Shown: positions 2,241 to 55,607, counted from the first letter of the stretch. The stretch: 64,000 nucleotides of DNA from an uncultured Candidatus Poseidoniales archaeon (GCA_964342465.1 CAYFFQ010000001.1:279691-343690), one strand, 5' to 3'. A program made the numbers and translations. Notes: generated by a model from the sequence alone, not told the origin.

Positions 2241-2270
2241 TCAACATCCTCTCTGAACTGTCCACTTCCC

Positions 2271-7214: not shown

Positions 7215-7262
7215 TTGTTCCTTCGGTTTCGCTCAATGCCATTACAATTAGCGTTTTCCGAT

Positions 7263-17960: not shown

Positions 17961-17998
17961 GTCTGCGACAAATAATGAAGAGCAGAGATGAATCAAGG

Positions 17999-18073
17999 TG
18001 GGCCTGACCGGATTCGAACCGATGGCTACTCGGTTATGAGCCGAGTGCTCTAACCAGACTAAGCTACAGGCCC
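17999..18073 (-). tRNA. tRNA with anticodon CAU (elongator tRNA-Met, or tRNA-Ile2 if C34 is modified)
   Basis: A 75-nt cloverleaf folded by hand: acceptor GGGCCTG/CAGGCCC, D stem GCTT/GAGC, anticodon stem CTCGG/CCGAG with loop CTCATAA, 5-nt variable loop, T arm ATCGG-TTCGAAT-CCGGT, discriminator A. CCA is not fully encoded. G1:C72 argues against an initiator. Confidence 0.9.
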
Positions 18074-22221: not shown

Positions 22222-23964
22222 TCACAAGTCGTCCAAATCCTCATCTAGATGGTTGATTACTTCCCGTGAGATGGTGATGGTCTTGGGACTTGCATCCTTG
22301 TCGCGAGTTGCGGTGAAGTAGACCACGAGTCCTAAACCGACGACCAGAGCGACTATGAAACTGATGAGTAGCGCACTATCTCCCTCACTCACTTCAGCGG
22401 CGGTGCTCCATTCGGTTGTAAGGGTGCTATCACCTCCACCGAGGGTGCCATTCACAACCACTTGCGACGGGGTCATCGGCATACACCTCAATGTATGATT
22501 ACCACTTGATGGTACTCCCCATTTGAGGTCAATCGTGGCGGTTTCACCAACTCCGAGGAGTGCTGCTGGATAGGGTGGTGAAATATCCGCCCTAACTTCT
22601 CCGACATGACACTCCAGTGGTACACTCGCTGCGGCGAGGCCGTTATTGGTTATGGTCACCCTCACCTCTGCTCTCTTACCGACCGAGGCCGCTTTCTCCA
22701 ATGAGATACCGGTCACCGAAACATCAGGTAGAATTGGGAAAAGGACTTCCACATCACTGCTCTTCTCAAGTGAGTTGTTGGCTCCATAGTAAGTGCCCCA
22801 GGCGGTGAACCATTCAACATCGGAGATTCTCGCATCCTCACTCCAAACCGTTCCGTTGGCATACCCAATCTCGACGATGCGAGGTCCCTGTTGATAGTTG
22901 GCTGGGACGATGTAGGAGCCATCAACCATGGAATGACCGAAGAGAGTCTTTTCTTGAGGCCCGACGCCAGTCAGATTGAATGTGATGCCGGAGCCGGGGA
23001 AATGAAGAGTCTGTTCTCCCACCTGCCTCTCCCAGAGGTCGATTATTCCACCTGAGCCATCTACTTCGCTCAATGATATCTCAGCCGCGGCATCTGCTTT
23101 GATGTCATGGTCCTCCCTGCTTCCACTGAAAGAGCCGCCGCTCATGGTAATCGATGCTGATTCCCCCGCCAATATCAATGGGCCAGAGGTATTGATGTCT
23201 GTTGAAGTTGAGGAAAATGCGCCGTTGATGGTCACATCAGCCCCATTCATCTCTGAGTCAATGGCGACAAGAGTGCCGCCTTCGGAGATGTGGAGAGAGA
23301 ATCCGGCGCTTCCTCGCAGCAACCAGTTTTCATTGTCGAGGTCCGCTGCTTCATAGACATTGGTGGTGGTCGCCCGATTGACTTCAATTCTGTCCACCAC
23401 CAGTTGCCCATATTCACCGACATTCTGATTGAAGTAGAGTGTACCACCTCCGCCGCTGACAACTCCGGCGGTGATGGTGTGGCTGTCTCCTGACATGTCC
23501 TCGTTCGGCCCTTCATTCCAGCGCACCGTGAAATTCGACAGATTGTAATCTGTGGAACTGAAGATGGTGATTGTGAACAGACCGAACTGCTCAGGCACGA
23601 ACAATGTCGCTTCGTCTCCATAACCAGCCCACATCTGGAGGTCAGAGGGTGGATACTGCGAACTGAGAGATGCGTTTTCAAGAACGACTCCGCCGTTAAT
23701 CACGATACTTGTACCGTTGGCAATTGATAGGTTGCCATCAATCCTCAGAGTGGCGCCAGCCGCGACGGTCACCATTCCATCAAGAACCATATTCCCCGAC
23801 CAGTCGGTGTCATCTGAAATGGTGACGGCGGAGCCATCTTGCGGGGGGGGGTCTCCAGCAACAACCAGTGCACTGTTCATCATCATAGTGAGGCATACCA
23901 AGACGACCAACCCAGTCACTAGCGTTCCTCTCGCCATACTTCCTGCGAGTCGGTGGTAGGCCAT
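22222..23964 (-). CDS. TM-anchored surface protein with beta-helix-like N-terminal half and CARDB-like domain
   Basis: The likely start is ATG 23964 (MAYHRLAGSMARGTLVTGLVVLVCLTMMMNSALVVA) or 23937. The TTG-extended ORF to 24102 would overlap carS. CARDB-like VSVTGISLEKAASVGKRAEVRVTITNNGLAAASVPLECHVG. TM ALLISFIVALVVGLGLVVYF; tail ends HLDEDLDDL. Confidence 0.8.
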   Translation of the reverse strand: MAYHRLAGSMARGTLVTGLVVLVCLTMMMNSALVVAGDPPPQDGSAVTISDDTDWSGNMVLDGMVTVAAGATLRIDGNLSIANGTSIVINGGVVLENASLSSQYPPSDLQMWAGYGDEATLFVPEQFGLFTITIFSSTDYNLSNFTVRWNEGPNEDMSGDSHTITAGVVSGGGGTLYFNQNVGEYGQLVVDRIEVNRATTTNVYEAADLDNENWLLRGSAGFSLHISEGGTLVAIDSEMNGADVTINGAFSSTSTDINTSGPLILAGESASITMSGGSFSGSREDHDIKADAAAEISLSEVDGSGGIIDLWERQVGEQTLHFPGSGITFNLTGVGPQEKTLFGHSMVDGSYIVPANYQQGPRIVEIGYANGTVWSEDARISDVEWFTAWGTYYGANNSLEKSSDVEVLFPILPDVSVTGISLEKAASVGKRAEVRVTITNNGLAAASVPLECHVGEVRADISPPYPAALLGVGETATIDLKWGVPSSGNHTLRCMPMTPSQVVVNGTLGGGDSTLTTEWSTAAEVSEGDSALLISFIVALVVGLGLVVYFTATRDKDASPKTITISREVINHLDEDLDDL

Positions 23965-23984
23965 CAATGCGCCGCTCTCGGGGG

Positions 23985-23994
23985 ATAGATTATA
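23985..23994. promoter_or_regulatory. TATA-like box ATAGATTATA in the 56-nt divergent gap
   Basis: It lies 21-30 nt from ATG 23964 (minus gene) and 27-36 nt from ATG 24021 (carS). This fits one bidirectional archaeal promoter driving near-leaderless transcripts. Inference only. Confidence 0.3.
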
Positions 23995-24020
23995 CCACCA
24001 TCTGCACAGCCGAGGGAGTG

Positions 24021-24701
24021 ATGGCAGGGACACCTCCTTGGGATTCGCTGTGGATGGCTCCTCTATTGGTCCTATGGCTCTATCTGCCGGGCTACCTGTC
24101 AAACACCACGGCGATGCTCGGGGGCAGGTGGATCCCAGCTCTCATCGGTGTATCATCCAAACCGATTGATGGGGGTCGGATTCATAGTGACGGCAACCGC
24201 TTGCTGGGGGACGGCAAGACTTGGAACGGCCTTGTCGGGGGAACCATCGGTGGTGGTCTTGTCGGCATGCTCACACATTGGCTCGGGAGTGCATCTCTTT
24301 CCTCCGCTCCGTTTCTCGACCCGCTCGGCGAATATCCTTCACTAGGGATGGGAGACATCACTTCTGCGTGGTATTGGGTCGGTGGTCAATGGGGTGCATC
24401 TCTCATACTCGGAATGGTGCTGGGATTCGGTTGTATGGTAGGTGATTCCACAGGTTCATTCTTCAAGAGAAGAAAAGGGCTGAAGCGAGAGGGCGAGGTG
24501 AGCAGCAGTGCTCCACTCCTTGACACAATACCGTTCGCCATATCCACATTCATCTTCGGCCAGCTTTTCCTCGCTCCTTCCATAGTATCGGATTCTGAGT
24601 TGTTGGTCGGTATGGTGCTGTTGCTCCTCCTTACGCCAATCATTCACCGTTCATTCAATGTCATGGGCTACAAACTCGGGTTGAAATCGGTCCCTTACTG
24701 A
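24021..24701 (+). CDS. carS: CDP-archaeol synthase (CDP-2,3-bis-O-geranylgeranyl-sn-glycerol synthase, DUF46/CarS family)
   Basis: Polytopic. YLPGYLSNTTAMLGG...KPIDGG...DGNRLLGDGKTWNGLVGGTIGG matches the CarS pattern (..PAY.AN....LGG..PID.G....G.R..GDGKTW.G). Start is ATG 24021 or nearby; the ORF is open from 23967. Confidence 0.75.
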   Translation: MAGTPPWDSLWMAPLLVLWLYLPGYLSNTTAMLGGRWIPALIGVSSKPIDGGRIHSDGNRLLGDGKTWNGLVGGTIGGGLVGMLTHWLGSASLSSAPFLDPLGEYPSLGMGDITSAWYWVGGQWGASLILGMVLGFGCMVGDSTGSFFKRRKGLKREGEVSSSAPLLDTIPFAISTFIFGQLFLAPSIVSDSELLVGMVLLLLLTPIIHRSFNVMGYKLGLKSVPY

Positions 24702-26326: not shown

Positions 26327-29300
26327 ATGGAAAACGAAACGAAGTCACCGATGCCGTTCAATGCGGCGTGGGGGCTGGCCAGAGCGCCTTTGGCAGCGAT
26401 GATTCTGCTGCTGATGACGATGGCCATCTACCCTCTTGGCGTGACATACGACAGTGAAACAGCGATAATGACGGTAGTGTTGCCATTCGTCCTTCTGACG
26501 ATTGGCGCAATGTTCGGCAGTGTGCCCCGCATCATCTTCTCCCACCTCGGTGTGAAGCCTGCACAGGTCACTCTGCTTATCTACGCGCCACTTGTCATCG
26601 CTGCTGCCATCCCACAACTGGTCATCGGCAACACCCTGCTCGGGGTTCTGTTCCTCGTGCTCGCTCTAGGTGTCCATTTCTTTGACAGGGTTGGACGAAA
26701 TGAGGAAGCGACAATCCTGATGTGGGCGGTGATGGGCTTTTGGGCGGCTCTGACAGTCGCCTCAGCGGCAGCACCAGTCTGGAATGGCGCATACTTCACC
26801 AATGGTGCATGGTTGCCAGCGATGGGTGAAGACAACTGGGCATCAATTGATGGCCACAGAGCAGCGACAGCCTATCTATTCTTCAACGGCTGGATGACCG
26901 CTATTCTAACAGGGGTCATCTTCTCCCTCGCCACTCGTGGTCGTTTCATCAAGGCTAGTGGAAGTGGTTGGTTCGAGAATCTTCCTGCGAAGTTGTCTGA
27001 CAAGGCGTTCGCACCGCTCTACGGAGGCTTCGGAGTATGGTTGTTCGCCCATCTGCTCTCATTCGCCTCATTCTTCACGGCATCAGAATCGGAGCGATTA
27101 GCTGGCGATACCATCGGCATCTGGTGGCCACTGTTCACCGGATTGGTGGCCCTTTTCGTCGCATACTGCTACGCAGAGAACCACAGAACCCGCGGTTCAC
27201 TCGTTGCCGTAAACTGGTTCATCTATTCTCTTGGAAGTTTCCAAGAAAACGGAATCATCCTCGATGGTTCAGCCGATTGGCACTCTTACTTCACCGAATC
27301 GAACGGTCTGGTGGTCTGGGTTGCAATCTTCTTCTGGCTCAATGTTCTAGCGGTGATGCTGAGCGTGAAGGGTAAACTGGGGGACATCTCCCCTCGCCGG
27401 CAACCCGGTCTAGCCAGCCAGTTCTGGTCGAACAATTGGTATGTATTGACAGTAGGCAGCGCTCTCTTCGTTGGCTTGTTGGTTCGTGTGGTGTGGAATG
27501 TTCTGCCCTTCATGAACGCAAGTGGTACACATGAATGGGACCTGACCGGTGGTTCTGACCCGTGGTACATGATGAGGACAGTCGAGTACATCCTCGCTGA
27601 GCACAACCATTTCATCATTGATATGGACCGCTCCTACCCGCTCGGTGCTATCAATCCAAGGCCCCCCCTCTTCTCTTGGTCACTCGCTCTTGGTGGTATG
27701 TTGCTGGCACCTCTGCTAGGTGTGCCCGCTTCCGAGGCTGTTTGGTGGTCGGTCGCTGCTCTGCCGGCAATCTACGGGGCTCTCTGTGTGCTGCCGATTG
27801 CCGGTATTGGCAGCCGCTTCTTTGGCAGGGCCACAGGCGCGGTATCTGCTTGGTTGATTGCTCTGATGCCCGGTCACGTTGGACACAGCACATTCGCCCT
27901 TGCCGACCACGACGCGTTCGCCATCCTCTTCCTATCACTAGGATTCTATTTCTGGCTCAAAGCGGTTCAGGCTGCAGGCGATGACAAATTAGTCGCCGAT
28001 GCGACTTGGAACCCAGCCTACCTGTTGAAGGGGGTAAGGGCCACATTCGAACAGCGGCCAGCCGCAATCGCCAATGCGGTGCTGTCGGGGATTTCATTCG
28101 CCACCGTCGCCCTCGGTTGGAAAGGGTTCGTCTATGGTCTCGGCATCGTGTTCCTCGCATTCTTCGCTCAGATAGTTCTCAACCAATTCAGGAGGAGGGA
28201 CAGCATGGCACTCTATGTGTCAGCATTGACCATGATGGTGGTGGCTTTTCTGCTACCTCTCCCGTTCTATGCTCACATGCAACTCGGTCTGATTTGGGAC
28301 GCAAGCGGATTCCAACCGATGTTCTATATCGTCGGATTCACATTCGCCGCAGGTTGGGTGGCCGTCTCATTCCGTGACAAGCCTTGGCTTCTGGTTCTCG
28401 TCAGCGGTGCCGGCCTTGCAGGTGCGATTCTCGGCATACTTTGGCTACTCCAGTTTGCAGGGATCTACAATGGCTGGGACGTTCTGTTCACCGGTGGTTA
28501 CTACCTCTCGAAGAACAAGATATTCGACACTATCGCTGAAGCTCAGGCGCCGAGTCGGGCTATGCTTTTCGCTTCTTTCGGGCCGATTGTCGCTCTCGCC
28601 GCACTCGGGGCGGGAATCATCGCCTTGTGGCAGGGATTGAGGAAGCGAGATGCGAGCCGGCTCGTTCTTGCAATCTGGATTCTCGTCGCCGGTGTCATGG
28701 CATGGCGAGCGGGACGATTCGTCTTCAACGCCACCCCCCCCGTCGCGGTGATGGGGGCTTGGGCCTTTGTCATCATCTGGCAATGGGTCGGTGGAACGGA
28801 TTTCGCCAAATCGTGGCGCAGGTTTGGAATCAGTACACCCGCCTCACGCTTCCGCTCGACTCGAAAGGCGTCTAGGAAATATCCCGGTGTAGTCGCCGTC
28901 CTGATGATTTTCATGCTCGTCGGAGCGCAACACGCCACCTACGGCCTCGATTCCGGCATTCCAAGCGGAAACTCCGCAGCCAAGGAGATTGACTCTAACA
29001 TCTACAACATCACTCCTAACATCCTCCGAGCGCAAGCACCTCTGTTCGGTTGGTCTCTCCTCGACTCCACTGCCTACAACCCCCCTAACCACTGTCGTGG
29101 GGTCACCAAGGAGACGAGTTGTTGGTACATGGGTGCCTTTGGACCCGGATTCAACGGTCAATACTGGAACGATGGCTATCAATGGTTGGAAGAACAGGAT
29201 TCAGATGTTCCATTCGGTCAGAAACCGGCATTTGTCTCATGGTGGGATTACGGTTTCCAAGCACTCGCACAGGGCCAACATCCAACGGTGGCGGACAACT

Positions 29301-32300
29301 TCCAGTCTGGCATTCCAGCAGCAGGAAACATGCTTCTCGCCCAGAGTGACGAGGACCTCCTCGCTCTATATGTGATGACTCTAGCAGAGGGTGACCTTAG
29401 GTACAACGACGGCGAGTGGACGAGAGACTTCTCACGCTCCATTGACAAATACTTCAACGATGCTCAGATGGAAGAGTTCTATCTGATTAACACGCTCGGC
29501 GGCGAAAATGGCGCCGACCTGCTGCAAGCCCGTTCCATCAGAATCATTCGTCAGGCAGGTGATATTTCGCTCGGCAAGGGGTTCACCATCGACTCGAGTG
29601 GCCTCCCGACGATAGCCACGGTCTACCGCGTCTATGAGAGTGAAGTTCAGGTTGCATCTGATTTCACTTCGCTGAATGAGGCCCTCTCGCAATTCAATCA
29701 GTCCAAAGACCGAAATGACGAAGTGACCGAGGAGTTCACCCATCAAGTGATTGGAAACTACTGGTACACAAGCGACATCGTAAATGATTTTGACGATGTT
29801 TCTTCTTCCATTCACCGCCAGAACTCACGCCTCGCCCTTGGCAAGGTCTTCCTCACCGAGGCGCTCGACTACGACGAATTGGTATCCCTTTACCACACCC
29901 TGACCCACGATGTCGAATACACGGTTGCAGATTCAGAAGGAAACCCCGGAGATACACTGACTCGCAACCACGACATCCGCTACTTCGCCGTCGACAACCG
30001 CCTCTACCCAGTCGGCGGTTCATACTCCAGTTCGGGTGGAAACCCAACCGGTATTTTCTATGCGCCGACGACGCTCTCGGGACTCGACCCCGAGACCTAC
30101 ATGAACACTTGGTATGTCACCCAGAGAGGCTCATCCGGATTCTATGTGGACATGACTCAAGAGGAGTATGAGGAGCAATACCGCAACGATGTTATTCTTT
30201 CTCAGTCGCAGAACACTCAGGATGTGATTCAGGCGGTCGATGTGCGCGTCGACCAGCAACCGGAGTTCTTCGACACGATGGTTGCGCGCGCCTATGTCGG
30301 CTATGGTAGCCCTCAACTCGGACTTCCGGGAAACCCAGCACAACCAGGTCAACACTTCGACCTGAGAGGAACCACCAACAGTTCACTCCAGAACGCCTTC
30401 CCTCTCCCCGGTGCGATGATGAACAACTTTGTAATCGCCAACTGGTATGACGAGGAAGCAGATGAGAACACTCAATGGTACGCCGCCAACACCGGTGTGA
30501 AGATTCTCAAGTACTATTCCGGTGCAACACTTGCGGGCGAGGTCAAATTAGGTGACTTCGGGAATGTCCCGAAGGCGCGCCTGCTTATTGAGAGAGATGC
30601 ATACAGCGGCGAAGGAGTCAGCGATGAGGACCCACGGGAATACTGGATTCCAATAGGTGCGGTAGATGCCGATGACCTCGGTCGATTTGAGTTCCGCGTT
30701 CCCGCTGGACACATCAGAGTAACGGCCTTCTCCGGATTTGCTGAAGACCCCGATGTTCTACGCAACCAAGACCGTGACGAGATTGTCTCGGCTCAGAACG
30801 ATTTTCAGGCATGGCAGGCGTGGTTCGCCGACATCCTCGGGCAGTCATTGACCGATGGCGAACGGGAGGTCAATCCCATCACCGCGATTCTCGCCAATGT
30901 CAGCGGCGGTAAGATGCTCGGCGAAATCGAGTTCAATGTGACAGGTAGCCAAGCCGACACAGATGGGGGCGCAGTGATATCGCAATCTCTCAACGTCGCT
31001 GCATCCAGCGCCACCGGAGTAGTCAAGTGGCAGGGCCACTCATCGTTCAACGACCAACCCCTCTCATCCCATGAATTGATTTTCACGGATATCTGGACCG
31101 AGGATGAACTCCCACATGTGTGGACCAACAACGGTACAGTCGTGACCGATGGTGAACACCCCAGAGTCTTCCGAGGCGAGGGTGAGGTGACCTTCACAGG
31201 TGCAGGATTGATGATGAGCGACGGTGATGTACTAGTCTCCGACTTCACCGGAAACTACACCCGTCAGATAGCCAACAACCATTCATTCACTGGCGAGGGA
31301 ATGTTCTCTGGAGCAGGTTCGTTTGTTGGTACCATCACCAGCGATGAAACCTTGACATCATGTGTGAATGGCACTCTACCGGCGACCCACGAGATCTGTT
31401 CAGTGGCTGGCTCAAACCCACCCGAATACTTGTTTGAAGGGGTCTTTGACGGAGTTGGCAGGGCGACAGCCAACGGCACAGTTGACTTCACCGCGGCACT
31501 CTACCGTGAGACATTGGTCGGAAACGGCATTTTCATGGTCACTGGTGACGACGATTCTCTCGAGACATTCGGCACGATAAATGGGAGCGGAACATTCAGT
31601 GGAGAGGGAATCTTCAGCGGTCCGATGGTCGAGCCAGGCAGTTTCCATGTCGTTGACGCACTGCCCGGTTCATACCGTGTCTTCGTCGTGTTGCCGAACG
31701 GTAACATCACCCGTCTTTCCACTCCGCTCGAGATTGATACCACTCCGACTACCGATGTTGACCTCTTCCTCCCCGGTTCTTGGATAGATGGTGAATTGGT
31801 CTGGTTCAATGGTACTCCGATAGCGGACACCGCCCTTCATCTCACAGACATCAGCCTAGACGAGGAAGCGACACAGAGTTGTGAAGATGTGCTCTTCGCA
31901 CCATGTATCATCTACACTGATGAGAATGGTTCGTTTGGTTATGGGCCAATCCCTGATGGTTCGTACGAACTGGCTATGGACCACGATGGAGACGGCTTTT
32001 ACGAGTGCGTACCGTGGTTGACCCCGACCAGTACGAATGCTTGTGATGGCACCGCCGCGGTCCGCGTCTCGATAGACCCGACAAACACCACACTCGCCAA
32101 GACCAACACACCAGTACCTATTCATCACGACATTGAATTCATCCTCCTTGAGGATATAGGTGGTGGCACGGTTCAGACCGTTAGTGATGTTGAAGTCAAT
32201 TTCCATGGCGCCATGCTTGCGGATGATGAGTACATACAAGCGGTCTACGATGAAGAGTCAGCGACATACCGTGTTGAACTTCCAGAGGGTGAATGGGTGG

Positions 32301-35300
32301 CCAACGCCTCTGCTGAGGGCGGATTGATGTTGTGGGAAGAGTTTGAACTCTTGGAGGAGATGGAAGGCATCTCGTGGGAGTTGCGCCGTAGCATCAATGT
32401 GAGCGGACAGATTCTCGTCCAGACTTTCAAGGAGGAGTCACCTGAAGAGGGCGTCCCCAACCTCGAAGTGAAATTCCAGTGGGGTGGAATCACCACCAGC
32501 ACTCAGACCGGATTCGGAGCGGAGGCGGGCAACTTCTCAATCTTCTTGCCCGAGGGGATATCTGTCAACATGACCACTGTGTCGATTGCGAGTCAGATGG
32601 TAAACGGAACCAACTTTGTAGTTTCACAGGAAGTATCGCCTGTAATTCTGATAATCGAAAATGGAATCTCTGTTACTGGTGCGGTCACTCTGAACGACAA
32701 TGTGACGGCCTATACTCCCGATGTTCCTGGATTCACACCTCTCCACCTCGAGGCATACAATGCTGATAGGGATGTGTGGTGGTATTACGATATTGATGTT
32801 GACACCGGTCGATTCTCAGAGAAACTTCAGCCGGGGAACTGGACCATCGGCCTTGATGATGTTCGGTTGAATGTCCCGACTCAGCAGATAGAAGTGAGCG
32901 CCGAGACAGCAGATGAACTACTCCATCTTCAATTCATTGCCCAACCTGACAATGTCTCTGTTGAAATCACCACATTCCTAGACCACACCGGCGATGGAAA
33001 TGTCAGCAATGGCACTCTCGTGGACATTGATTTCTCACTCACACCACTATCCGATGGTGGAATCGGGGAGCGCATCAATGTCACTGCCGAGATGATGGTA
33101 AATGGCGTAGTATCTCTCGATTTGGAACCGGGGGCGTACGCGGTTCTCGTAGACCCCCAACCTGCCGTCAACGGCAGCGATTGGGACACAGTGGCTACGG
33201 TATCGGAAACCGTTCTCATTCTTGGATTGGACAACACCACTACCGTTTATGAGGAGATCTCATTGCAGCCACGATGGCTCGTGAGCGGAGAATTGAACAA
33301 CCAATACGGCGGAAATGTCAGCAATGAGTCGATTTCCTTCACCAGAGTTGATTCTACAGAATCCTTCACTCTCATCACCGACGAAAACGGCACTTTCAGC
33401 CGCTACATCGATGAGGGTGAATGGCAAGTAGTAGTCACCCGCAGAGTCATGGTGGATGTTGAAGAGGAATTCCGCGGCATACTCACGGTCGATGCAGAAT
33501 CGAATCGAGGCGACCTAGTGTGGAGAACACTCGAATCCGCAGAACTGGCCATCCATCTCTCAGTGGAAGATACTGGAGACGCCCTGGCCGGATTTTCACT
33601 TATCGCCACCAACAACGACGGATTGGGCGAAGTGACACTTCCCCCCACCAGTGACACAGGGGATGTCACAGGATATCTCTATCCCGGAAATTGGACATTG
33701 TCACTCAACTTCACCGAATCACAGGACCGTTGGATTCTCAGTGAACAAGAGATTGGAATCCTCTCCGCAGGCCAACCCTTCACCCAGAACTACTCGGTGG
33801 AACACTGGGTCATGTTGGGCGGGAACCTGTTTTGGGATTTGGATTCGGACGACGAATACGATTTCAATGAGGGTGTTGAGGATGCCAACATCACAGTCTC
33901 AGGCGGGGGCCTGAACGAGAGTGTGAATCTGACGAGTTCCGCCCAAGGAACTTGGACTCTTTTCGTCCCGACATTGGAAAACTACACCGTCGAGGCGGCG
34001 AAACTTGGATTCAGCGATGTTACAATCGTCGTCGAGGTTGGCACTATCACCAATTCAACAGATATTGAACTTTCAGCGGGTAATGTGACCATCAGTGGAA
34101 CCATCGACTATGTACAGATGGATATTTGGGATGACATCTCCGATGATGTCACCATCCGACTCCTCCCCAAGGCCGGAATTGAGAGAGAAGTGCGCACCCC
34201 CACCAAGGTGATGGCCGGAGATGGCACTTGGGATGGGGAGTGGAGTGCCGATGTCGAACCAGGGGATTGGGTCATCCACGCTTCAGTTGAATCAGCCGGA
34301 ATTGTCGGCGTCGCCAATGTCGAAGCGGGAGTCCACGACGGTGCAGTCGTCAACATGACGATGGCACCGGGAGGCACTCTGCATCTTTTCACCGAATGGA
34401 TTGATTTCAATGGCGTTGTGCATGACCTCGGCGATGTTGACATCGAAGAGGCGGATATCATCGGAGTGCCGAAGGTCAAGGTCACAACAGGTGGGGCAAT
34501 TTCATGGAACATCACCGTTGACTCCAATGGAGAATACGACTTCCTGCTACCTGCGGGAGACCTCTACTTTGAAGGGGAATTTGAGAGTGATGAGAAGGGT
34601 ATGGTCATGACCTATCGTGCTGGCCTGACGAGTACCATCGCTTCGCAACAGGGAGCGCCGGACACAACCTTGACATTCAGCAGAATCTTGGAGCACGGAG
34701 TCTCGTTCAACGTATCAGAAATGGCTGGAGCGACCCCTCTTGAAGACCTGAACAACGAGGTAGTAGCAGATTATCTCAACGATACCACCTACCAGCCAAT
34801 CGAGTTCACAATAGACTTGGAATACGAAGGCAACGAAGGTTTCGACGAGTACACAGTTGGCACGGTGTTCGACGCCGAAGATGTCGCCTATTGGGAGGTG
34901 GAGTTCTTCAACGGAAGCGGTGAGGATGGTGAGGAATCGTGGGAGTCTGAGATTCCCGTCAGCCTCGGCCTTGACGACGACGCTTCAACACAGATTCGTA
35001 TGCGCGTCACTCCCGCCGATGTCGAAAACGCCCGTTCCATTGAGGGCGGTCATGTCATTAAACTGAGGACGACCCACTCAACCGGTACGTGGAGTGAATA
35101 CATAATCAAGGTACATATCCCGCAGACCTTCTCCATAGAAGTCGTATCTGCGCCAACTGGTACGGTTGGTGTCTTCCCAGGCGAGGAAGAGAGAGTCGAA
35201 TTCTCAATCCTCAACACAGGAAATGGTCAAGACATGCTCTCCTTCACCATCGACAAGACATGGTTGCCGGATGGCTGGAGTGCCACAGGTCCTTCCTCAT

Positions 35301-35911
35301 CACCGTGGGCCAGCGGAGAGGAGAGAACCTACTCCTTCACTGTCGTCGCGCCCGCTGATGCTGGAACCACTCCGTTCACTCTCTCGGTTCAGGTCAACAG
35401 CTCGGATGGCACGAGTTATGACCCTCTTGAGGTGACGGTGAAGGCAGCGAAGCCGATTCTGAAGTTCATCACTGAAGATACCGGTACTTTCGATGGCAAG
35501 GATGCGGTGACTGGCAAGAGCAACAAGATGATTGTCAGGGTGCAGAACAGTGGATTGGTGAGGGCGGAGCACATCCGCGTGAACATCACCATTGAGGGAT
35601 ATCCAGATGTCTATATTCTATCAGACATGGAGGACATCGCTGCGGACTCCACAGTAGAATACATCATGTTCATCGACCTCGATGGAGTCGGAATCGGCAA
35701 GCAGAATTTCTTCTTCACTCTTGAGAGCGAATTTGGAATGGACCTCGATGAGGAGTCGGAGGAGAGCCTGACTAGGAAGATACAGGTCTCAACACCGCCA
35801 CCAGAGGATGTCAATGTCTGGGTTCCACTCATCATCATAGCAGTATTCGTTCTCGGATTTTTCGGATTCCGTAGAATACGTGACTCGCTCTCGGGACAGA
35901 TGCCATTCTGA
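26327..35911 (+). CDS. aglB: giant oligosaccharyltransferase-family protein: extra polytopic N-terminal region + STT3/AglB core + ~2000-aa beta-sandwich repeat region + C-terminal TM
   Basis: 3194 aa. WWDYG motif (FVSWWDYGFQ, aa 972-976, nt 29240-29254). First-loop acidic motif GGSDPWYMMR (D411, nt 27557). ADHDAF second acidic motif. About 9 TM lie before the STT3-type TM1 (NNWYVLTVGSALFVGLLV). CarboxypepD_reg-like motifs include IYTDENGSFGYGPIPDGSYEL and LITDENGTFSRYIDEGEWQVVV. CARDB/COG1470-like motifs include VEFSILNTGNGQDML and MIVRVQNSGLVRAE. Final TM is WVPLIIIAVFVLGFFGF. Confidence 0.85.
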   Translation: MENETKSPMPFNAAWGLARAPLAAMILLLMTMAIYPLGVTYDSETAIMTVVLPFVLLTIGAMFGSVPRIIFSHLGVKPAQVTLLIYAPLVIAAAIPQLVIGNTLLGVLFLVLALGVHFFDRVGRNEEATILMWAVMGFWAALTVASAAAPVWNGAYFTNGAWLPAMGEDNWASIDGHRAATAYLFFNGWMTAILTGVIFSLATRGRFIKASGSGWFENLPAKLSDKAFAPLYGGFGVWLFAHLLSFASFFTASESERLAGDTIGIWWPLFTGLVALFVAYCYAENHRTRGSLVAVNWFIYSLGSFQENGIILDGSADWHSYFTESNGLVVWVAIFFWLNVLAVMLSVKGKLGDISPRRQPGLASQFWSNNWYVLTVGSALFVGLLVRVVWNVLPFMNASGTHEWDLTGGSDPWYMMRTVEYILAEHNHFIIDMDRSYPLGAINPRPPLFSWSLALGGMLLAPLLGVPASEAVWWSVAALPAIYGALCVLPIAGIGSRFFGRATGAVSAWLIALMPGHVGHSTFALADHDAFAILFLSLGFYFWLKAVQAAGDDKLVADATWNPAYLLKGVRATFEQRPAAIANAVLSGISFATVALGWKGFVYGLGIVFLAFFAQIVLNQFRRRDSMALYVSALTMMVVAFLLPLPFYAHMQLGLIWDASGFQPMFYIVGFTFAAGWVAVSFRDKPWLLVLVSGAGLAGAILGILWLLQFAGIYNGWDVLFTGGYYLSKNKIFDTIAEAQAPSRAMLFASFGPIVALAALGAGIIALWQGLRKRDASRLVLAIWILVAGVMAWRAGRFVFNATPPVAVMGAWAFVIIWQWVGGTDFAKSWRRFGISTPASRFRSTRKASRKYPGVVAVLMIFMLVGAQHATYGLDSGIPSGNSAAKEIDSNIYNITPNILRAQAPLFGWSLLDSTAYNPPNHCRGVTKETSCWYMGAFGPGFNGQYWNDGYQWLEEQDSDVPFGQKPAFVSWWDYGFQALAQGQHPTVADNFQSGIPAAGNMLLAQSDEDLLALYVMTLAEGDLRYNDGEWTRDFSRSIDKYFNDAQMEEFYLINTLGGENGADLLQARSIRIIRQAGDISLGKGFTIDSSGLPTIATVYRVYESEVQVASDFTSLNEALSQFNQSKDRNDEVTEEFTHQVIGNYWYTSDIVNDFDDVSSSIHRQNSRLALGKVFLTEALDYDELVSLYHTLTHDVEYTVADSEGNPGDTLTRNHDIRYFAVDNRLYPVGGSYSSSGGNPTGIFYAPTTLSGLDPETYMNTWYVTQRGSSGFYVDMTQEEYEEQYRNDVILSQSQNTQDVIQAVDVRVDQQPEFFDTMVARAYVGYGSPQLGLPGNPAQPGQHFDLRGTTNSSLQNAFPLPGAMMNNFVIANWYDEEADENTQWYAANTGVKILKYYSGATLAGEVKLGDFGNVPKARLLIERDAYSGEGVSDEDPREYWIPIGAVDADDLGRFEFRVPAGHIRVTAFSGFAEDPDVLRNQDRDEIVSAQNDFQAWQAWFADILGQSLTDGEREVNPITAILANVSGGKMLGEIEFNVTGSQADTDGGAVISQSLNVAASSATGVVKWQGHSSFNDQPLSSHELIFTDIWTEDELPHVWTNNGTVVTDGEHPRVFRGEGEVTFTGAGLMMSDGDVLVSDFTGNYTRQIANNHSFTGEGMFSGAGSFVGTITSDETLTSCVNGTLPATHEICSVAGSNPPEYLFEGVFDGVGRATANGTVDFTAALYRETLVGNGIFMVTGDDDSLETFGTINGSGTFSGEGIFSGPMVEPGSFHVVDALPGSYRVFVVLPNGNITRLSTPLEIDTTPTTDVDLFLPGSWIDGELVWFNGTPIADTALHLTDISLDEEATQSCEDVLFAPCIIYTDENGSFGYGPIPDGSYELAMDHDGDGFYECVPWLTPTSTNACDGTAAVRVSIDPTNTTLAKTNTPVPIHHDIEFILLEDIGGGTVQTVSDVEVNFHGAMLADDEYIQAVYDEESATYRVELPEGEWVANASAEGGLMLWEEFELLEEMEGISWELRRSINVSGQILVQTFKEESPEEGVPNLEVKFQWGGITTSTQTGFGAEAGNFSIFLPEGISVNMTTVSIASQMVNGTNFVVSQEVSPVILIIENGISVTGAVTLNDNVTAYTPDVPGFTPLHLEAYNADRDVWWYYDIDVDTGRFSEKLQPGNWTIGLDDVRLNVPTQQIEVSAETADELLHLQFIAQPDNVSVEITTFLDHTGDGNVSNGTLVDIDFSLTPLSDGGIGERINVTAEMMVNGVVSLDLEPGAYAVLVDPQPAVNGSDWDTVATVSETVLILGLDNTTTVYEEISLQPRWLVSGELNNQYGGNVSNESISFTRVDSTESFTLITDENGTFSRYIDEGEWQVVVTRRVMVDVEEEFRGILTVDAESNRGDLVWRTLESAELAIHLSVEDTGDALAGFSLIATNNDGLGEVTLPPTSDTGDVTGYLYPGNWTLSLNFTESQDRWILSEQEIGILSAGQPFTQNYSVEHWVMLGGNLFWDLDSDDEYDFNEGVEDANITVSGGGLNESVNLTSSAQGTWTLFVPTLENYTVEAAKLGFSDVTIVVEVGTITNSTDIELSAGNVTISGTIDYVQMDIWDDISDDVTIRLLPKAGIEREVRTPTKVMAGDGTWDGEWSADVEPGDWVIHASVESAGIVGVANVEAGVHDGAVVNMTMAPGGTLHLFTEWIDFNGVVHDLGDVDIEEADIIGVPKVKVTTGGAISWNITVDSNGEYDFLLPAGDLYFEGEFESDEKGMVMTYRAGLTSTIASQQGAPDTTLTFSRILEHGVSFNVSEMAGATPLEDLNNEVVADYLNDTTYQPIEFTIDLEYEGNEGFDEYTVGTVFDAEDVAYWEVEFFNGSGEDGEESWESEIPVSLGLDDDASTQIRMRVTPADVENARSIEGGHVIKLRTTHSTGTWSEYIIKVHIPQTFSIEVVSAPTGTVGVFPGEEERVEFSILNTGNGQDMLSFTIDKTWLPDGWSATGPSSSPWASGEERTYSFTVVAPADAGTTPFTLSVQVNSSDGTSYDPLEVTVKAAKPILKFITEDTGTFDGKDAVTGKSNKMIVRVQNSGLVRAEHIRVNITIEGYPDVYILSDMEDIAADSTVEYIMFIDLDGVGIGKQNFFFTLESEFGMDLDEESEESLTRKIQVSTPPPEDVNVWVPLIIIAVFVLGFFGFRRIRDSLSGQMPF

Positions 35912-36010
35912 GCGACAATCAGTGAGGGTGATAACCTTCCTTCACTCCGGTATGGATGAGCGTAGCCGATGGTCGGCGGTGGTCAGTGAGAATAGTCTGA
36001 GGTGAATGGA

Positions 36011-37273
36011 ATGATTCCTGGATTCAAGGACTCTGAACTACTGCCCGAACCGGAGGACCCGAGGATGCTTTCCATCATTGACGAGAAGGCTGAAGGATAT
36101 CCTGCAGAGGCGTATGGACTCCCTCCAGAGCGAGACCCTCAGGCATGGAAGGATGCAGATGCCGTGAAACCGAAGAGACCGCGCCGCCTACCTTGGGGGG
36201 TTTGGCTCGTCACCGGATTGGTCATCGTCATTCTCGTGACCTATTCATCAATCGTCGGGTTCATCGATGAGTTCGTCCCCGATTCGGAATGGGCTTACGA
36301 ATCGACAGGAATCAGGTCTCTGAATGGAGAGGGGTGGTATGGTTCAGGTATCCGAGTTTGTATCGTGGATACTGGGATAGAGGTCACTCATCCCGACCTC
36401 ATCTCTGTTAATCTCGTTGGATTCAAAGATTTCATCGATGGCACTGAAGGGGCGCCGCATGACAACGATGTCTCCCAATCACACGGCACGATGATGGCCG
36501 GCATTCTCGTCGCCAACGGCACATTTCAAGGTGCGGCGCCGAGGGTCCAGTTGATTGTCGCCGCCGCCCTAGGCTCAGATGGTGCCTCTGGCTCTGAAGT
36601 CGCCGTAGCAGATGCCATCACTTGGTGTTGGGCGGAGATGGGCGCTCAGATAATCAGCCTCAGTCTCGGTGGAAAACCAGACATTATTTCCACCTTCGGT
36701 GGCCGTACCGAGGCGGCAGTGGAGGATGCTCTTGACAACGGTGTCTTCGTCGTCGCCGCGGCTGGTAATCACGGCGGTCTGGGTCAGGATTACCCCGATG
36801 TGTCAGTCCCATCGAATGTTGAGGGGGTGATCAGCGTCGGCGCAGTACATCGCAACGGGACCCTTTGGGCTCAATCCAGTGGTGGCTCTGCAACCGATGC
36901 CGCAGGGGATGTGAGAGAATGGCCAAACCAGAAACCGGAGATTGTGGCTCCGGGTGTTGACATCCACTCGACCTTCTACTCTGAAAGAACTGGTCCAACT
37001 TGGTCTCGTAGTGACGGCACCAGTGATGCGACGGTCTTTGTCACCGCTGCTCTCTGTCTGATTCTTCAGAAGTATCAAGGAAATCCGGGTATGGAACAGA
37101 GCCACGCAGGCGACAGGGCGCCACTTGAACTGGTCAAGGCTGCGCTCGCCAAATCCGCTTCACCAGCACTCTTCCAAGAAGCAGGAACCCATCATCTGCG
37201 CTATGGATATGGCTCATTGGATGCCGATGCGTGGGCCGATGAAGTCGGCGAGGCGTTGGCTTCTGTCGAATGA
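36011..37273 (+). CDS. subtilisin-like serine protease (S8), N-terminal signal-anchor
   Basis: VCIVDTGIEVTHPDL (Asp), SQSHGTMMAGIL (His), SDGTSDATVFVTAA (Ser). There is a ~60-aa acidic cytoplasmic N-tail, then TM LPWGVWLVTGLVIVILVTYSSIVGF. GAGGTGA (35999-36005) lies 5 nt before ATG 36011; the ORF is open from GTG 36002. Confidence 0.85.
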   Translation: MIPGFKDSELLPEPEDPRMLSIIDEKAEGYPAEAYGLPPERDPQAWKDADAVKPKRPRRLPWGVWLVTGLVIVILVTYSSIVGFIDEFVPDSEWAYESTGIRSLNGEGWYGSGIRVCIVDTGIEVTHPDLISVNLVGFKDFIDGTEGAPHDNDVSQSHGTMMAGILVANGTFQGAAPRVQLIVAAALGSDGASGSEVAVADAITWCWAEMGAQIISLSLGGKPDIISTFGGRTEAAVEDALDNGVFVVAAAGNHGGLGQDYPDVSVPSNVEGVISVGAVHRNGTLWAQSSGGSATDAAGDVREWPNQKPEIVAPGVDIHSTFYSERTGPTWSRSDGTSDATVFVTAALCLILQKYQGNPGMEQSHAGDRAPLELVKAALAKSASPALFQEAGTHHLRYGYGSLDADAWADEVGEALASVE

Positions 37274-41908: not shown

Positions 41909-41978
41909 ACTACATCGGTCCACCCGACCAAACCATTGAATGTGTATGGGTGGCGAGCAGAGAGGGGGAGGTGTAGGG

Positions 41979-49627: not shown

Positions 49628-49658
49628 AGATACCGCAGCGAATGCTGTGGGTGGACAC

Positions 49659-55391: not shown

Positions 55392-55523
55392 ACCGCGCCA
55401 AGAAGAACCCACCTCAGAGTTCCCGAATCGGTTGTTGTTTTGGAGATACGATGCTGACCATCCCGTTGAGTTTTTTGTAGCCAGAAATTTGTTTTGGGTG
55501 GTGCTGGAAACTATGCATTGATA

Positions 55524-55540
55524 TCTGGCCTTAGGCCAGA
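55524..55540. promoter_or_regulatory. perfect palindrome TCTGGCC-TTA-GGCCAGA between two giant genes
   Basis: 7-bp arms with a 3-nt A/T centre. It lies 133 nt after the stop at 55391 and 67 nt before TTG 55608. It is followed by CACCAAAGGGG (55552-55562), a one-base-shorter version of the ACCCAAAGGG core. Confidence 0.3.
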
Positions 55541-55607
55541 GTCAACCGTGACACCAAAGGGGAGATTTCAAAGGTGGCGTTTGACTGTCCGAGCGGGAGG
55601 GGATGTC

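What the first reader, a model, noticed from the sequence alone, without database searches (positions are those of the whole stretch)
26327..35911. 3194-aa AglB/STT3 oligosaccharyltransferase embedded in a giant two-anchor surface protein
Seen: the catalytic-core hallmarks of STT3/AglB are present. These are WWDYG at aa 972-976, the first-loop motif GGSDPWYMMR with D411, and ADHDAF.
The core is preceded by ~370 aa containing about nine extra hydrophobic helices. It is followed by ~2000 aa of repeated beta-sandwich-type modules (TDENG.F...G.Y motifs, NTGN/NSG CARDB-like modules) and a final TM helix (aa ~3165-3181).
Established: characterised archaeal AglB enzymes are roughly 600-1050 aa, with one periplasmic C-terminal domain and no second anchor.
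Inference: the N-glycosylation enzyme is physically coupled to a large surface scaffold. Possible roles are positioning it at sites where the neighbouring giant proteins emerge, or the scaffold acting as a substrate or carbohydrate-binding platform.
Basis: partly seen in the sequence, partly recalled or inferred. Interest (0 to 1): 0.78.

Follow-up and report, generated by a model that had tools for sequence, protein, structure and literature searches.

The report
Giant two-anchor archaeal N-glycosylation enzyme
This is a real, conserved 3,194-residue gene of marine group II archaea that joins the enzyme attaching sugar chains to proteins (AglB/STT3) to an extra ten-helix membrane module and to a roughly 2,000-residue surface arm that is rich in sugar-attachment sites and has its own membrane anchor; the long-arm design is shared by a whole archaeal phylum, and I found no study of it.

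Summary
Window 26327-35911 (+) is one 3,194-codon ORF with every motif at the stated residue.

It is not an assembly artefact. More than 120 collinear full-length homologues (3,141-3,298 aa, down to 37% identity) come from independent marine metagenomes, with the same gene order: CarS, PurD, giant STT3, S8 subtilase, ~1,450-aa surface protein, STAND/TPR.

The STT3 core keeps D411, D527-H528-D529, T735-I-A-E738 and WWDYG invariant. Its model matches AglB, STT3 and PglB structures.

The "giant two-anchor AglB" is not unique to this genome. At least 525 species-representative Thermoplasmatota loci encode 2,000-2,800-aa homologues that also end in a transmembrane (TM) helix. A profile alignment covers residues 342-3001.

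What is specific to group II is a confidently modelled ten-helix N-terminal membrane module with no Pfam or PDB relative, plus an insertion of roughly 110-190 aa.

The extracellular arm has at least nine transthyretin-like and two CARDB-like domains. It carries 44 N-X-S/T sequons against 13 expected (z 9.9), so it is probably the enzyme's own substrate.

Best reading: a working oligosaccharyltransferase built into a self-glycosylated surface arm. Verdict: a new variant of a known kind, annotated in databases but uncharacterised. Interest is moderate.

The parts
26327..35911 (+). Complete giant AglB/STT3 gene (3,194 aa plus stop)
   Evidence: One ORF. More than 120 collinear full-length homologues of 3,141-3,298 aa.
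26327..27409 (+). N-terminal extension, aa 1-361: ten predicted TM helices with the N-terminus in the cytoplasm; specific to marine group II
   Evidence: AF2 model pLDDT 80, pTM 0.81, ten helices. No PDB fold match, best Foldseek E 0.58. No Pfam hit at E<=5. Predicted inside loops carry 11.8 K+R against 0.8 in outside loops, averaged over 25 homologues. The N-extension HMM hits 121 of 121 proteins over 3,000 aa; among 204 proteins of 2,000-2,900 aa it hits only two, both labelled partial.
27410..28966 (+). STT3/GT-C membrane domain, aa 362-880 (about 13 TM helices)
   Evidence: Pfam STT3 E 4e-14. Aligns with A. fulgidus AglB 3WAJ. Foldseek top hits are AglB, STT3A/B, Stt3 and PglB. Column identity 0.67-0.76.
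27548..27568 (+). EL1 motif GGSDPWY with D411 (first DXD-type metal ligand)
   Evidence: Aligned to AfAglB GGNDPWY (D47). Invariant in 25 homologues. Role of D47 from PMC8342417.
27902..27919 (+). EL2 motif ADHDAF (D527-H528-D529; second DXD motif)
   Evidence: Aligned to AfAglB 'NDHH' (D161, H163). D527, H528 and D529 are invariant.
28529..28540 (+). TIXE motif T735-I-A-E738 in external loop 5
   Evidence: Same four residues as the AfAglB TIAE motif (E360; PMC8342417). T735, I736 and E738 are invariant. TIAEAQ served as a clade-wide search pattern.
28967..30826 (+). Extracytoplasmic catalytic and core domain, aa 881-1500
   Evidence: AglB_core-like weak hit at aa 969-1010. The profile matches AfAglB-S C-terminal domains 3VGP and 3VU0 at E 8e-10. 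Column identity 0.52-0.72.
29240..29254 (+). WWDYG motif (aa 972-976)
   Evidence: Invariant.
29294..29311 (+). DNFQSG (aa 990-995), at the position of the DGGK-type motif
   Evidence: Aligned with AfAglB-L 'NPFQAG' and AglB-S 'NNFQAG'. D990, N991, F992, Q993 and G995 are invariant.
29348..29911 (+). Insertion region, aa ~1008-1195, between WWDYG and the DK/MI-like block; group II proteins carry about 110-130 extra residues here (folded alpha/beta)
   Evidence: Mostly absent from non-group-II giants in alignment A4. AF2 pLDDT mostly 70-90 over this stretch.
29975..30076 (+). IRYFAVD...TGIFYAPTTL block (aa 1217-1250), the candidate DK/MI-type Ser/Thr-pocket motif with Ile in place of Lys
   Evidence: D1223, G1242, I1243, F1244, A1246 and P1247 are invariant. 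The block is shared with most non-group-II Thermoplasmatota giants. Equivalence to the DK/MI motif is inferred, not shown (one search found no alignment).
30827..35806 (+). Extracellular arm, aa 1501-3160: acidic, sequon-rich array of beta-sandwich domains
   Evidence: D+E 15-19%. 44 N-X-S/T sequons against 13.4 expected, z 9.9, with 13 conserved sequon columns. Invariant Cys pair C1679/C1691. Homologous to the arms of non-group-II giants (hhalign probability 100, residues 342-3001).
30605..30802 (+). CarboxypepD_reg-like domain 1 (aa 1427-1492)
   Evidence: Iterative HMM. Corresponds to the first 'LKYYDGA...TDE.G.Y' domain of other giants.
31892..32932 (+). CarboxypepD_reg-like domains 2-5 (aa 1856-1922, 1945-2022, 2036-2113, 2133-2202)
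   Evidence: Iterative HMM, E 4e-4 to 2e-12.
33290..34687 (+). CarboxypepD_reg-like domains 6-9 (aa 2322-2402, 2413-2492, 2508-2585, 2703-2787)
   Evidence: Pfam PF13620 42 bits at aa 2514-2582. Segment scan. Iterative HMM.
35174..35647 (+). Two membrane-proximal NTGN/NSG modules (NPCBM_assoc-like aa 2950-3023; CARDB aa 3058-3107)
   Evidence: Pfam on the last segment: CARDB 26 bits (cut-off 22.7), NPCBM_assoc E 2e-4. The NTGN modules are also conserved in non-group-II giants.
35810..35866 (+). Second membrane anchor, TM helix aa 3162-3180
   Evidence: Hydropathy 2.39. A C-terminal TM helix is present in nearly all relatives over 2,000 aa.
35867..35908 (+). Basic cytoplasmic tail FRRIRDSLSGQMPF with invariant terminal Phe
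   Evidence: Consensus RRxGAPF, F3194 invariant. K+R 3.6 per 13 residues.
36002..37273 (+). Downstream membrane-anchored S8 subtilase (conserved neighbour; functional link only inferred)
   Evidence: Peptidase_S8 E 6.5e-39. Single TM at aa 67-85. Same position in relatives at 38-43% identity.

Best explanation
This is the marine group II (Poseidoniales, at least the Thalassarchaeaceae) version of a 'giant AglB' found across the phylum Thermoplasmatota. It is a functional oligosaccharyltransferase permanently fused to a large surface arm.

Shown:
- The protein has an STT3 core of about 13 TM helices (aa ~362-1500) in which every catalytic motif is invariant.
- Beyond the core lie about 1,700 aa of acidic beta-sandwich domains, then a second TM helix and a short basic tail.
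- Ahead of the core lies a ten-helix membrane module specific to group II.

Inferred mechanism:
- The core binds a dolichol-phosphate-linked glycan and a divalent cation through D411, D527/H528 and E738.
- It holds the acceptor sequon with the TIAE strand, and with WWDYG plus the GIFYAP block.
- It transfers the glycan to Asn of N-X-S/T on polypeptides emerging outside the membrane.
- The arm is outside the cell, disulfide-bonded and itself heavily N-glycosylated (44 sequons, 13 of them conserved).
- Because it is tethered at both ends, the arm forms a glycoprotein arch over the enzyme. It probably contributes to the cell envelope or glycocalyx and keeps the enzyme at the surface layer it decorates.

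The ten-helix N-terminal module (N-terminus inside; conserved R124/E126/E127, R204 and E284 predicted on the cytoplasmic face) is an added membrane subunit of unknown role.
For: The gene is real and under constraint.
- More than 120 collinear homologues reach down to 37% identity.
- Gene order is conserved in relatives at 38-43% identity.
- Conservation peaks over the core at 0.7-0.76 per column.

The catalytic apparatus is intact.
- Pfam and NCBIfam STT3 hits.
- Alignment with AfAglB 3WAJ places D411 on D47 and D527-H528 on D161-H163 (residue roles from PMC8342417).
- TIAE and WWDYG are invariant.
- The Foldseek top 19 hits are all OST catalytic subunits.

The arm is extracellular and a likely substrate.
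- Sequon z-score 9.9 in aa 1501-3160, with no excess in the core or TM parts.
- 13 sequon columns are kept in at least 70% of homologues.
- There are invariant Cys pairs and D+E of 15-19%.
- Other secreted ORFs in the window are also sequon-rich.

The architecture is ancestral.
- hhalign probability 100 over residues 342-3001 against non-group-II giants.
- A C-terminal TM helix occurs in nearly all relatives.
- At least 525 GTDB loci encode a relative.
- The non-group-II genes sit in housekeeping neighbourhoods.

Topology of the N-terminal module: ten helices and a strong positive-inside bias.
Against: - There is no experimental evidence for activity, glycan occupancy or an intact full-length protein.
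- The AF2 model of the core is only moderate (pLDDT 61) and poor around WWDYG.
- The Lys of the DK motif is replaced by Ile, and equivalence of the GIFYAP block to DK/MI is unproven.
- The NCBIfam archaeo_STT3 score (186) is far below its cut-off of 450.
- I could not test whether this is the only STT3 gene in the genome. One record labelled Thalassarchaeaceae carries a giant AglB without the N-terminal module.
- The scaffold or envelope role is inference from anatomy.
- The function of the N-terminal module is unknown.
Confidence: 0.7

Rival explanations
1. Polyprotein or precursor. The gene is translated as one chain, but the arm is cut from the enzyme outside the cell, for example by the membrane-anchored S8 subtilase encoded immediately downstream. 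That would yield a normal-sized AglB plus a separate C-terminally anchored surface (S-layer-like) glycoprotein.
For: - An S8 subtilase with an extracellular catalytic domain sits directly downstream and is syntenic across group II relatives.
- The arm resembles C-terminally anchored archaeal surface glycoproteins.
- Some non-group-II relatives carry PGF-CTERM-like signals that imply C-terminal processing.
- Conservation drops after about aa 1500.
Against: - No conserved linker or cleavage motif was identified.
- Non-group-II giants lack the adjacent subtilase, yet keep the fusion.
- Retention of the fusion across a whole phylum argues that covalent linkage, at least during biogenesis, matters.
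Confidence: 0.15
2. Specialised paralogue. The form with the N-terminal module is a second, dedicated OST (for instance for a subset of giant surface proteins or a particular glycan), while another STT3 does general N-glycosylation in these cells.
For: - Archaea can carry several AglB paralogues; A. fulgidus has three (PMC3703281).
- A GTDB record labelled Thalassarchaeaceae (L068) holds a giant AglB without the N-terminal module.
- The window is crowded with giant secreted proteins.
Against: - L068 is 94% identical to P0146, whose 90%-identity cluster includes a protein labelled Marine Group III. A mislabelled or misbinned contig is therefore at least as likely.
- No short STT3 of intermediate similarity appeared between the group II giants and the other giants in the exhaustive search.
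Confidence: 0.2
3. Structural pseudoenzyme. The STT3 core has lost activity and the protein is only a membrane-anchored surface or adhesion protein.
For: - The Lys of the DK motif is absent.
- The score against the curated archaeal STT3 model is low.
Against: - All metal-binding and sequon-binding motifs (D411, D527-H528-D529, TIAE, WWDYG, DNFQ.G) are invariant over sequences that are only 37% identical overall.
- The core is the most conserved part of the protein.
Confidence: 0.03
4. Assembly chimera or missed stop/frameshift that joins separate genes.
For: None beyond the unusual length.
Against: - Identical architecture and length appear in more than 120 cluster representatives from ENA, JGI, NCBI, Logan and Tara assemblies, including contigs of 0.2-1.7 Mb.
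- Composition is uniform across the gene.
Confidence: 0.01

Closest known systems
Archaeoglobus fulgidus AglB-L (PDB 3WAJ/3WAK/5GMY/7E9S), the structurally characterised archaeal oligosaccharyltransferase
   Same: - GT-C membrane domain of about 13 TM helices.
- GG(S/N)DPWY with the first metal-binding Asp, a D-H-(H/D) second motif, a literal TIAE motif, WWDYG, and a (N/D)xFQxG motif after it.
- Best sequence and fold match.
   Different: - AfAglB-L chains are 875 residues with one C-terminal globular domain and no further anchor.
- This protein adds 361 aa (ten TM helices) at the N-terminus and extra sequence (~110-130 aa more than other giants) within aa ~1008-1195 after WWDYG.
- It also adds about 1,700 aa of beta-sandwich domains and a second TM helix.
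- Sequence identity is only about 14-18%.
- The DK-motif Lys is replaced by Ile.
Uncharacterised 'giant AglB' proteins of Thermoplasmatota (Methanomassiliicoccales, DHVE2/Aciduliprofundum, Thermoplasmata MAGs, Marine Group III), known only as database entries annotated 'STT3 domain-containing' or 'carboxypeptidase regulatory-like domain-containing protein'
   Same: - Homologous over core plus arm (hhalign probability 100, residues 342-3001).
- The same motifs after WWDYG.
- CarboxypepD_reg arrays, terminal NTGN/CARDB modules, and a C-terminal TM helix with a basic tail.
   Different: - They are 2,000-2,800 aa and start directly with STT3 TM1, with no ten-helix module.
- They lack the extra sequence that group II proteins carry at aa ~1008-1195.
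- Some carry PGF-CTERM-like signals, which the group II protein lacks.
- Their gene neighbourhoods differ.
Eukaryotic OST complex and NOMO-type arrays (functional analogy only)
   Same: - A catalytic STT3 works together with additional membrane helices and large extracytoplasmic subunits; that these are beta-sandwich proteins is from my own knowledge.
- Weak NOMO_5th and EMC7 beta-sandwich Pfam hits in the arm. NOMO1-like domains are precomputed for non-group-II relatives.
   Different: - Here everything is one polypeptide.
- No homology of the N-terminal module or arm to Ost1/Ost3/Wbp1/Swp1 was detected.
- The analogy is from general knowledge and was not tested.
Haloferax volcanii S-layer glycoprotein and other C-terminally anchored archaeal surface glycoproteins
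   Same: A large, acidic, sequon-rich extracellular polypeptide ending in a C-terminal TM helix with a basic tail (general knowledge; PMC6098224).
   Different: - No sequence similarity was tested or found.
- The arm here is covalently part of the OST.
- No PGF motif.

Membership tests
STT3/AglB/PglB oligosaccharyltransferase catalytic subunit (GT-C; Pfam PF02516) | N-terminal multi-span (13 TM) GT-C membrane domain | tested here: met
   PF02516 53 bits against a cut-off of 24.5. About 13 hydrophobic helices at aa 372-872. Foldseek top hits are AglB, STT3 and PglB, E 2e-12 to 4e-6.
STT3/AglB/PglB oligosaccharyltransferase catalytic subunit (GT-C; Pfam PF02516) | First DXD-type acidic motif in external loop 1 (AfAglB D47) | tested here: met
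   GGSDPWY (D411) aligned to GGNDPWY. Invariant. Role per PMC8342417.
STT3/AglB/PglB oligosaccharyltransferase catalytic subunit (GT-C; Pfam PF02516) | Second DXD motif in external loop 2 (AfAglB D161-H-H163) | tested here: met
   D527-H528-D529 aligned to D-H-H. Invariant.
STT3/AglB/PglB oligosaccharyltransferase catalytic subunit (GT-C; Pfam PF02516) | TIXE/SVSE motif in external loop 5 | tested here: met
   T735-I-A-E738 is present and invariant. The pairwise HMMER alignment is out of register in this loop, so equivalence rests on motif identity, position and conservation.
STT3/AglB/PglB oligosaccharyltransferase catalytic subunit (GT-C; Pfam PF02516) | WWDYG motif in the extracytoplasmic domain | tested here: met
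   aa 972-976, invariant, aligned to AfAglB WWDYG.
STT3/AglB/PglB oligosaccharyltransferase catalytic subunit (GT-C; Pfam PF02516) | DGGK-type motif after WWDYG | tested here: inconclusive
   DNFQSG (aa 990-995) aligns with 'NPFQAG' and 'NNFQAG' of A. fulgidus AglBs and is invariant. It is not a literal DGGK.
STT3/AglB/PglB oligosaccharyltransferase catalytic subunit (GT-C; Pfam PF02516) | DK or MI motif completing the Ser/Thr pocket | tested here: inconclusive
   A conserved D1223...G-I1243-F-Y-A-P1247 block lies at the expected distance, but no alignment to solved AglBs was obtained. Lys is absent.
STT3/AglB/PglB oligosaccharyltransferase catalytic subunit (GT-C; Pfam PF02516) | Oligosaccharyl transfer from a lipid-linked glycan to Asn | not testable with these tools
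   Needs biochemistry or genetics.
NCBIfam TIGR04154 archaeo_STT3 (archaeosortase A-associated AglB subfamily) | Score at or above the curated cut-off (450 bits) | tested here: not met
   185.7 bits over aa 379-1010. Related, but outside the curated subfamily.
PGF-CTERM / archaeosortase A substrates | PGF motif, TM helix and basic cluster at the C-terminus | tested here: not met
   The C-terminus is ...PPPEDVNVWVPLIIIAVFVLGFFGFRRIRD..., with no PGF before the helix. No PGF-CTERM model hit. Several non-group-II relatives do have 'PGFE' before the helix.
Thermoplasmatota giant AglB clade (database-only, uncharacterised) | STT3 core, IRYFA(V/I)D...GIFYAP block, CarboxypepD_reg array, NTGN/CARDB modules, C-terminal TM helix | tested here: met
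   hhalign probability 100, E 2e-230, residues 342-3001. Shared motifs. Domain array. C-terminal helices.
CarboxypepD_reg (PF13620) transthyretin-like domain | Pfam gathering score | tested here: met
   42 bits against 32.3 at aa 2514-2582. Eight further copies were found only by the iterative clade-specific HMM.
CARDB (PF07705) | Pfam gathering score | tested here: met
   26.0 bits against 22.7 when the last 294 aa are scanned, but 17.9 bits in the whole-protein scan. Borderline.

The most novel reading that the evidence does not exclude
The ten-helix N-terminal module specific to group II is a new device for handling lipid-linked oligosaccharide, fused directly to the transferase. It could be the still-unidentified archaeal flippase, or a unit for recycling or channelling dolichol phosphate. 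Alternatively or in addition, the two-anchored glycosylated arm could be the principal cell-envelope protein of these abundant, uncultured ocean archaea, so that the envelope is built from the enzyme that glycosylates it. My evidence does not exclude either idea: the module folds confidently, has conserved charged residues predicted on the cytoplasmic face, and has no known relative.
Probability: 0.12. Interest if true: 0.85.

Novelty: new variant of a known kind. Interest (0 to 1): 0.55.

Why it matters
Every characterised oligosaccharyltransferase catalytic subunit is a protein of roughly 600-1,050 residues (my own knowledge). It either works alone or recruits separate subunits.

Here a whole archaeal phylum keeps the enzyme covalently joined to a surface arm of 1,400-2,100 residues with a second membrane anchor. 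That phylum includes marine group II, one of the most abundant archaeal groups in the surface ocean. Group II adds a further ten-helix membrane module whose fold has no recognisable relative.

If the arm is a self-glycosylated envelope component, three things follow.
- It links glycan transfer and envelope construction in organisms whose cell surface has never been seen.
- It offers a single-chain natural analogue of the multi-subunit eukaryotic OST.
- It provides conserved surface glycoprotein targets for metaproteomics and virus-host studies.

Genera with cultured members appear among the relatives (Methanomassiliicoccus, Aciduliprofundum), although the sequences recovered here are from MAGs. 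That may make the question experimentally tractable.

Tried and rejected
- **Assembly chimera or frameshift:** rejected.
- **N-terminal module as a duplicated STT3 membrane domain or an internal repeat:** hhalign probabilities 0.2-0.3%, rejected.
- **N-terminal module as a known family or fold:** no Pfam hit at E<=5. Foldseek against PDB gave a best E of 0.58, and the WzxE flippase hits at E 1.4-1.7 with TM-score 0.17-0.19 are not significant.
- **Word-indexed homologue search with the N-terminal module alone:** returned nothing, not even the protein itself, so it is uninformative.
- **Recent tandem repeats in the arm:** only weak motif-level self-matches, so the domains are old and divergent.
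- **Aligning the region after WWDYG to solved AglBs to fix the DK/MI motif:** the single sequence found nothing relevant. The profile matched only the WWDYG-DNFQ stretch.
- **PGF-CTERM sorting signal in the window protein:** absent.
- **Literature:** seven full-text searches linked AglB, STT3 or N-glycosylation with Marine Group II, Poseidoniales, Thermoplasma or Methanomassiliicoccales. None found a description of giant AglBs. Haft et al. 2012 was not held.
- **Synteny as a test of orthology with the Marine Group III-type gene:** different neighbours, inconclusive.
- **Whether the genome holds another STT3:** could not be tested.
Full report
**Observation**

Window 26327-35911 (+) is a single ATG-initiated ORF of 3,194 codons.
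- GGSDPWY at aa 408-414 (D411)
- ADHDAF at 526-531
- WWDYG at 972-976

Pfam finds STT3 at aa 410-764 (E 4e-14), a CarboxypepD_reg domain at 2514-2582, and weaker AglB_core-like and CARDB hits. NCBIfam's archaeal STT3 model covers aa 379-1010 at 186 bits, below its cut-off of 450. Hydropathy shows 8-9 peaks before STT3 TM1 (aa 372-390) and a last helix at aa 3162-3180.

**Not an artefact**

A protein search returned more than 120 full-length homologues of 3,141-3,298 aa.
- They cover 96-100% of the query at 37-73% identity.
- They come from ENA, JGI, NCBI, Logan and Tara assemblies, some on contigs of 0.2-1.7 Mb.
- Where named, they are 'Candidatus Thalassarchaeaceae archaeon', 'uncultured marine group II/III euryarchaeote' or 'STT3 domain-containing protein'.

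In relatives at 38-43% identity the gene order is the same as in the window. That order is CDP-archaeol synthase, PurD, giant STT3, S8 subtilase, a ~1,450-aa Big_7/beta-helix protein, and a STAND/TPR protein. Base composition is uniform across the gene. A chimera or missed stop is excluded.

**The enzyme core**

phmmer against PDB sequences aligns aa ~370-1000 with A. fulgidus AglB-L (3WAJ). GGSDPWY falls on GGNDPWY, ADHD on NDHH, and WWDYG on WWDYG. According to PMC8342417, D47, D161 and H163 of AfAglB bind the metal, and E360 of the Thr-Ile-Ala-Glu motif completes the site and pairs with the sequon.

The corresponding D411, D527, H528, T735, I736, E738 and WWDYG are invariant in a 25-sequence alignment that spans 37-73% identity. 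So is DNFQ.G (aa 990-995). Per-column identity by region is as follows:

| Region (aa) | Column identity |
|---|---|
| N-terminal 400 | 0.40-0.57 |
| 400-1000 | 0.67-0.76 |
| 1200-1500 | 0.65-0.70 |
| after 1800 | 0.41-0.54 |

An AlphaFold2 model of aa 340-1500 is moderate overall (pLDDT 61). It is good in the membrane domain and poor around WWDYG. Even so, its 19 best PDB matches are all OST catalytic subunits: AglB, human STT3A/B, yeast Stt3 and PglB. Other GT-C enzymes follow.

One feature is unresolved. At the expected place for the DK/MI motif there is an invariant D1223...G-I-F-Y-A-P1247 block with Ile where DK-type enzymes have Lys. No alignment to solved AglBs could be obtained for it.

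**The architecture is phylum-wide**

An exhaustive HMMER search with aa 371-1500 found 891 cluster representatives.
- The group II giants (3,146-3,228 aa) have a core starting at residue ~340-405.
- After them come more than a hundred proteins of 2,000-2,800 aa at 27-39% identity, whose core starts at residue ~5-155.

Where named, these are from Thermoplasmata, Methanomassiliicoccales and other Thermoplasmatota MAGs. They are annotated 'STT3 domain-containing', 'carboxypeptidase regulatory-like domain-containing' or 'glycosyltransferase family 39'.

A scan of GTDB species representatives found at least 525 encoding loci. The best 80 span Thermoplasmata, Methanomassiliicoccaceae, Methanomethylophilaceae, DHVE2/Aciduliprofundum, halophilic Thermoplasmatota and Poseidoniia.

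Nearly all of these proteins end in a hydrophobic helix followed by a basic tail. Several have a PGF-CTERM-like 'PGFE' before the helix.

Profile-profile comparison of the group II alignment with a 12-sequence non-group-II alignment gives probability 100 (E 2e-230) over group II residues 342-3001. Core and arm are therefore homologous throughout. Shared motifs after WWDYG are visible.

The non-group-II genes lie in housekeeping neighbourhoods, next to RNA polymerase, OMP decarboxylase and PurD. The statement that no such enzyme has been characterised appears to hold, because seven literature searches found nothing.

**What is specific to group II**

An HMM of aa 1-365 hits all 121 retrieved proteins longer than 3,000 aa. 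Among 204 proteins of 2,000-2,900 aa it hits only two, both labelled partial and with group II-like identity to the query.

The module models confidently (pLDDT 80, pTM 0.81) as ten TM helices. With STT3 TM1 running from inside to outside, this gives an N-terminus in the cytoplasm. Averaged over 25 homologues, predicted inside loops carry 11.8 K+R against 0.8 in outside loops.

The module has no known relative.
- No Pfam match at E<=5.
- No PDB fold match, best E 0.58.
- It is neither a copy of the STT3 membrane domain nor internally repeated.
- Invariant or nearly invariant polar residues include R124/E126/E127, D175/R178, R204 and E284.

Group II also carries extra sequence after WWDYG: about 110-130 more residues than other giants, within a folded alpha/beta region at aa ~1008-1195.

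Giant AglBs of the sister group lack the module. These are loci L038, L068 and L069 and the clade of P0145, P0139 and P0146, one member of which is labelled Marine Group III. L068 is labelled Thalassarchaeaceae. This is either a mislabel or a hint of a second paralogue, and it remains unresolved.

**The arm**

Residues 1501-3160 are acidic, with D+E at 15-19% and K+R at 3-4% over aa 1501-3000. They contain invariant Cys pairs.

The arm holds at least nine CarboxypepD_reg/transthyretin-like domains. It also holds two membrane-proximal NTGN modules that match NPCBM_assoc and CARDB. The domains are old and divergent, not recent repeats.

The arm carries 44 N-X-S/T sequons against 13.4 expected from shuffles (z 9.9). 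The N-terminal module, the membrane core and the catalytic domain show no excess. Thirteen sequon columns are conserved in at least 70% of homologues. Other secreted ORFs in the window are also sequon-rich. No lectin-type domain was found.

**Interpretation**

- **Shown:** an intact, strongly conserved OST core; an extracellular-type, sequon-rich beta-sandwich arm; a second TM helix; and a ten-helix module specific to group II.
- **Inferred:** the protein is an active OST. Its own arm is among its substrates. Tethered at both ends, the arm forms a glycoprotein arch that is part of the envelope or glycocalyx.

Rivals are listed with their tests: cleavage of the arm, perhaps by the syntenic membrane-anchored S8 subtilase; a specialised second OST; and a pseudoenzyme.

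**Verdict**

This is a new variant of a known kind. It is widespread and annotated in databases, but uncharacterised.

Noticed in passing
window 36002-37273 (+): An S8 subtilase with a ~65-aa cytoplasmic N-terminus and a single TM helix (aa 67-85), so it is type II anchored with the protease outside. It lies immediately downstream of the giant AglB in all group II relatives examined.
   Followed up: partly
window 12268-13374 (-), 18166-19185 (+), 22222-24102 (-): Three predicted surface proteins end in a TM helix followed by an acidic tail with a terminal LDDL-like motif (...DPLDDLDL, ...FELDDL, ...DEDLDDL). This may be a lineage-specific cytoplasmic tail signal. It differs from the basic RRxGAPF tail of the AglB.
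   Followed up: no
window 35867-35908 (+): The very last residue of the giant AglB (F3194) is invariant in 25 group II homologues. Tails are either RRxGAPF or end in (R/K)F, as in ...SRSGSRF or ...SRGGTKF. A conserved C-terminal aromatic residue on the cytoplasmic side is unexplained.
   Followed up: partly
L085 14519-15771 (Methanomassiliicoccales MAG, GCA_014361295.1): Directly downstream of that organism's 2,172-aa giant AglB lie a 256-aa CARDB protein and a 107-aa thioredoxin with a weak Pfam OST3_OST6 hit. This recalls the thioredoxin-like Ost3/Ost6 subunits of eukaryotic OST.
   Followed up: no
L068 (GTDB record titled Ca. Thalassarchaeaceae archaeon CB11b_AW.22), 1351-7248: A giant AglB without the N-terminal module (GC 44%). 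It is 94% identical to P0146, whose 90%-identity cluster includes a protein labelled Marine Group III. Either the record is mislabelled or misbinned, or some group IIb genomes hold a second giant AglB.
   Followed up: partly
window 2271-7214 (-): A 1,647-aa secreted protein with six lamin-tail domains (E 1e-79) followed by two PLD-like phosphodiesterase domains.
   Followed up: no
window 49647-55391 (+) and 55494-61259 (+): Two adjacent proteins of about 1,915 aa with almost no Pfam matches. The first has 39 sequons against 14.7 expected (z 7.0), the second has no excess.
   Followed up: no
window 41940-44498 (+): An 852-aa protein with an HTH, a STAND/AAA_16 NTPase and TPR repeats. It is syntenic with the AglB-subtilase-surface protein cluster in distant group II relatives.
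   Followed up: no
window 28727-28738 (+), aa 801-804: N801-A-T-P804 is an invariant N-X-T 'sequon' inside the STT3 membrane region (RFxFNATP). It is probably a structural or functional motif rather than a glycosylation site.
   Followed up: no
window 17997-18073 (-): A single tRNA-Met (CAT) gene, the only RNA gene detected in the window.
   Followed up: yes
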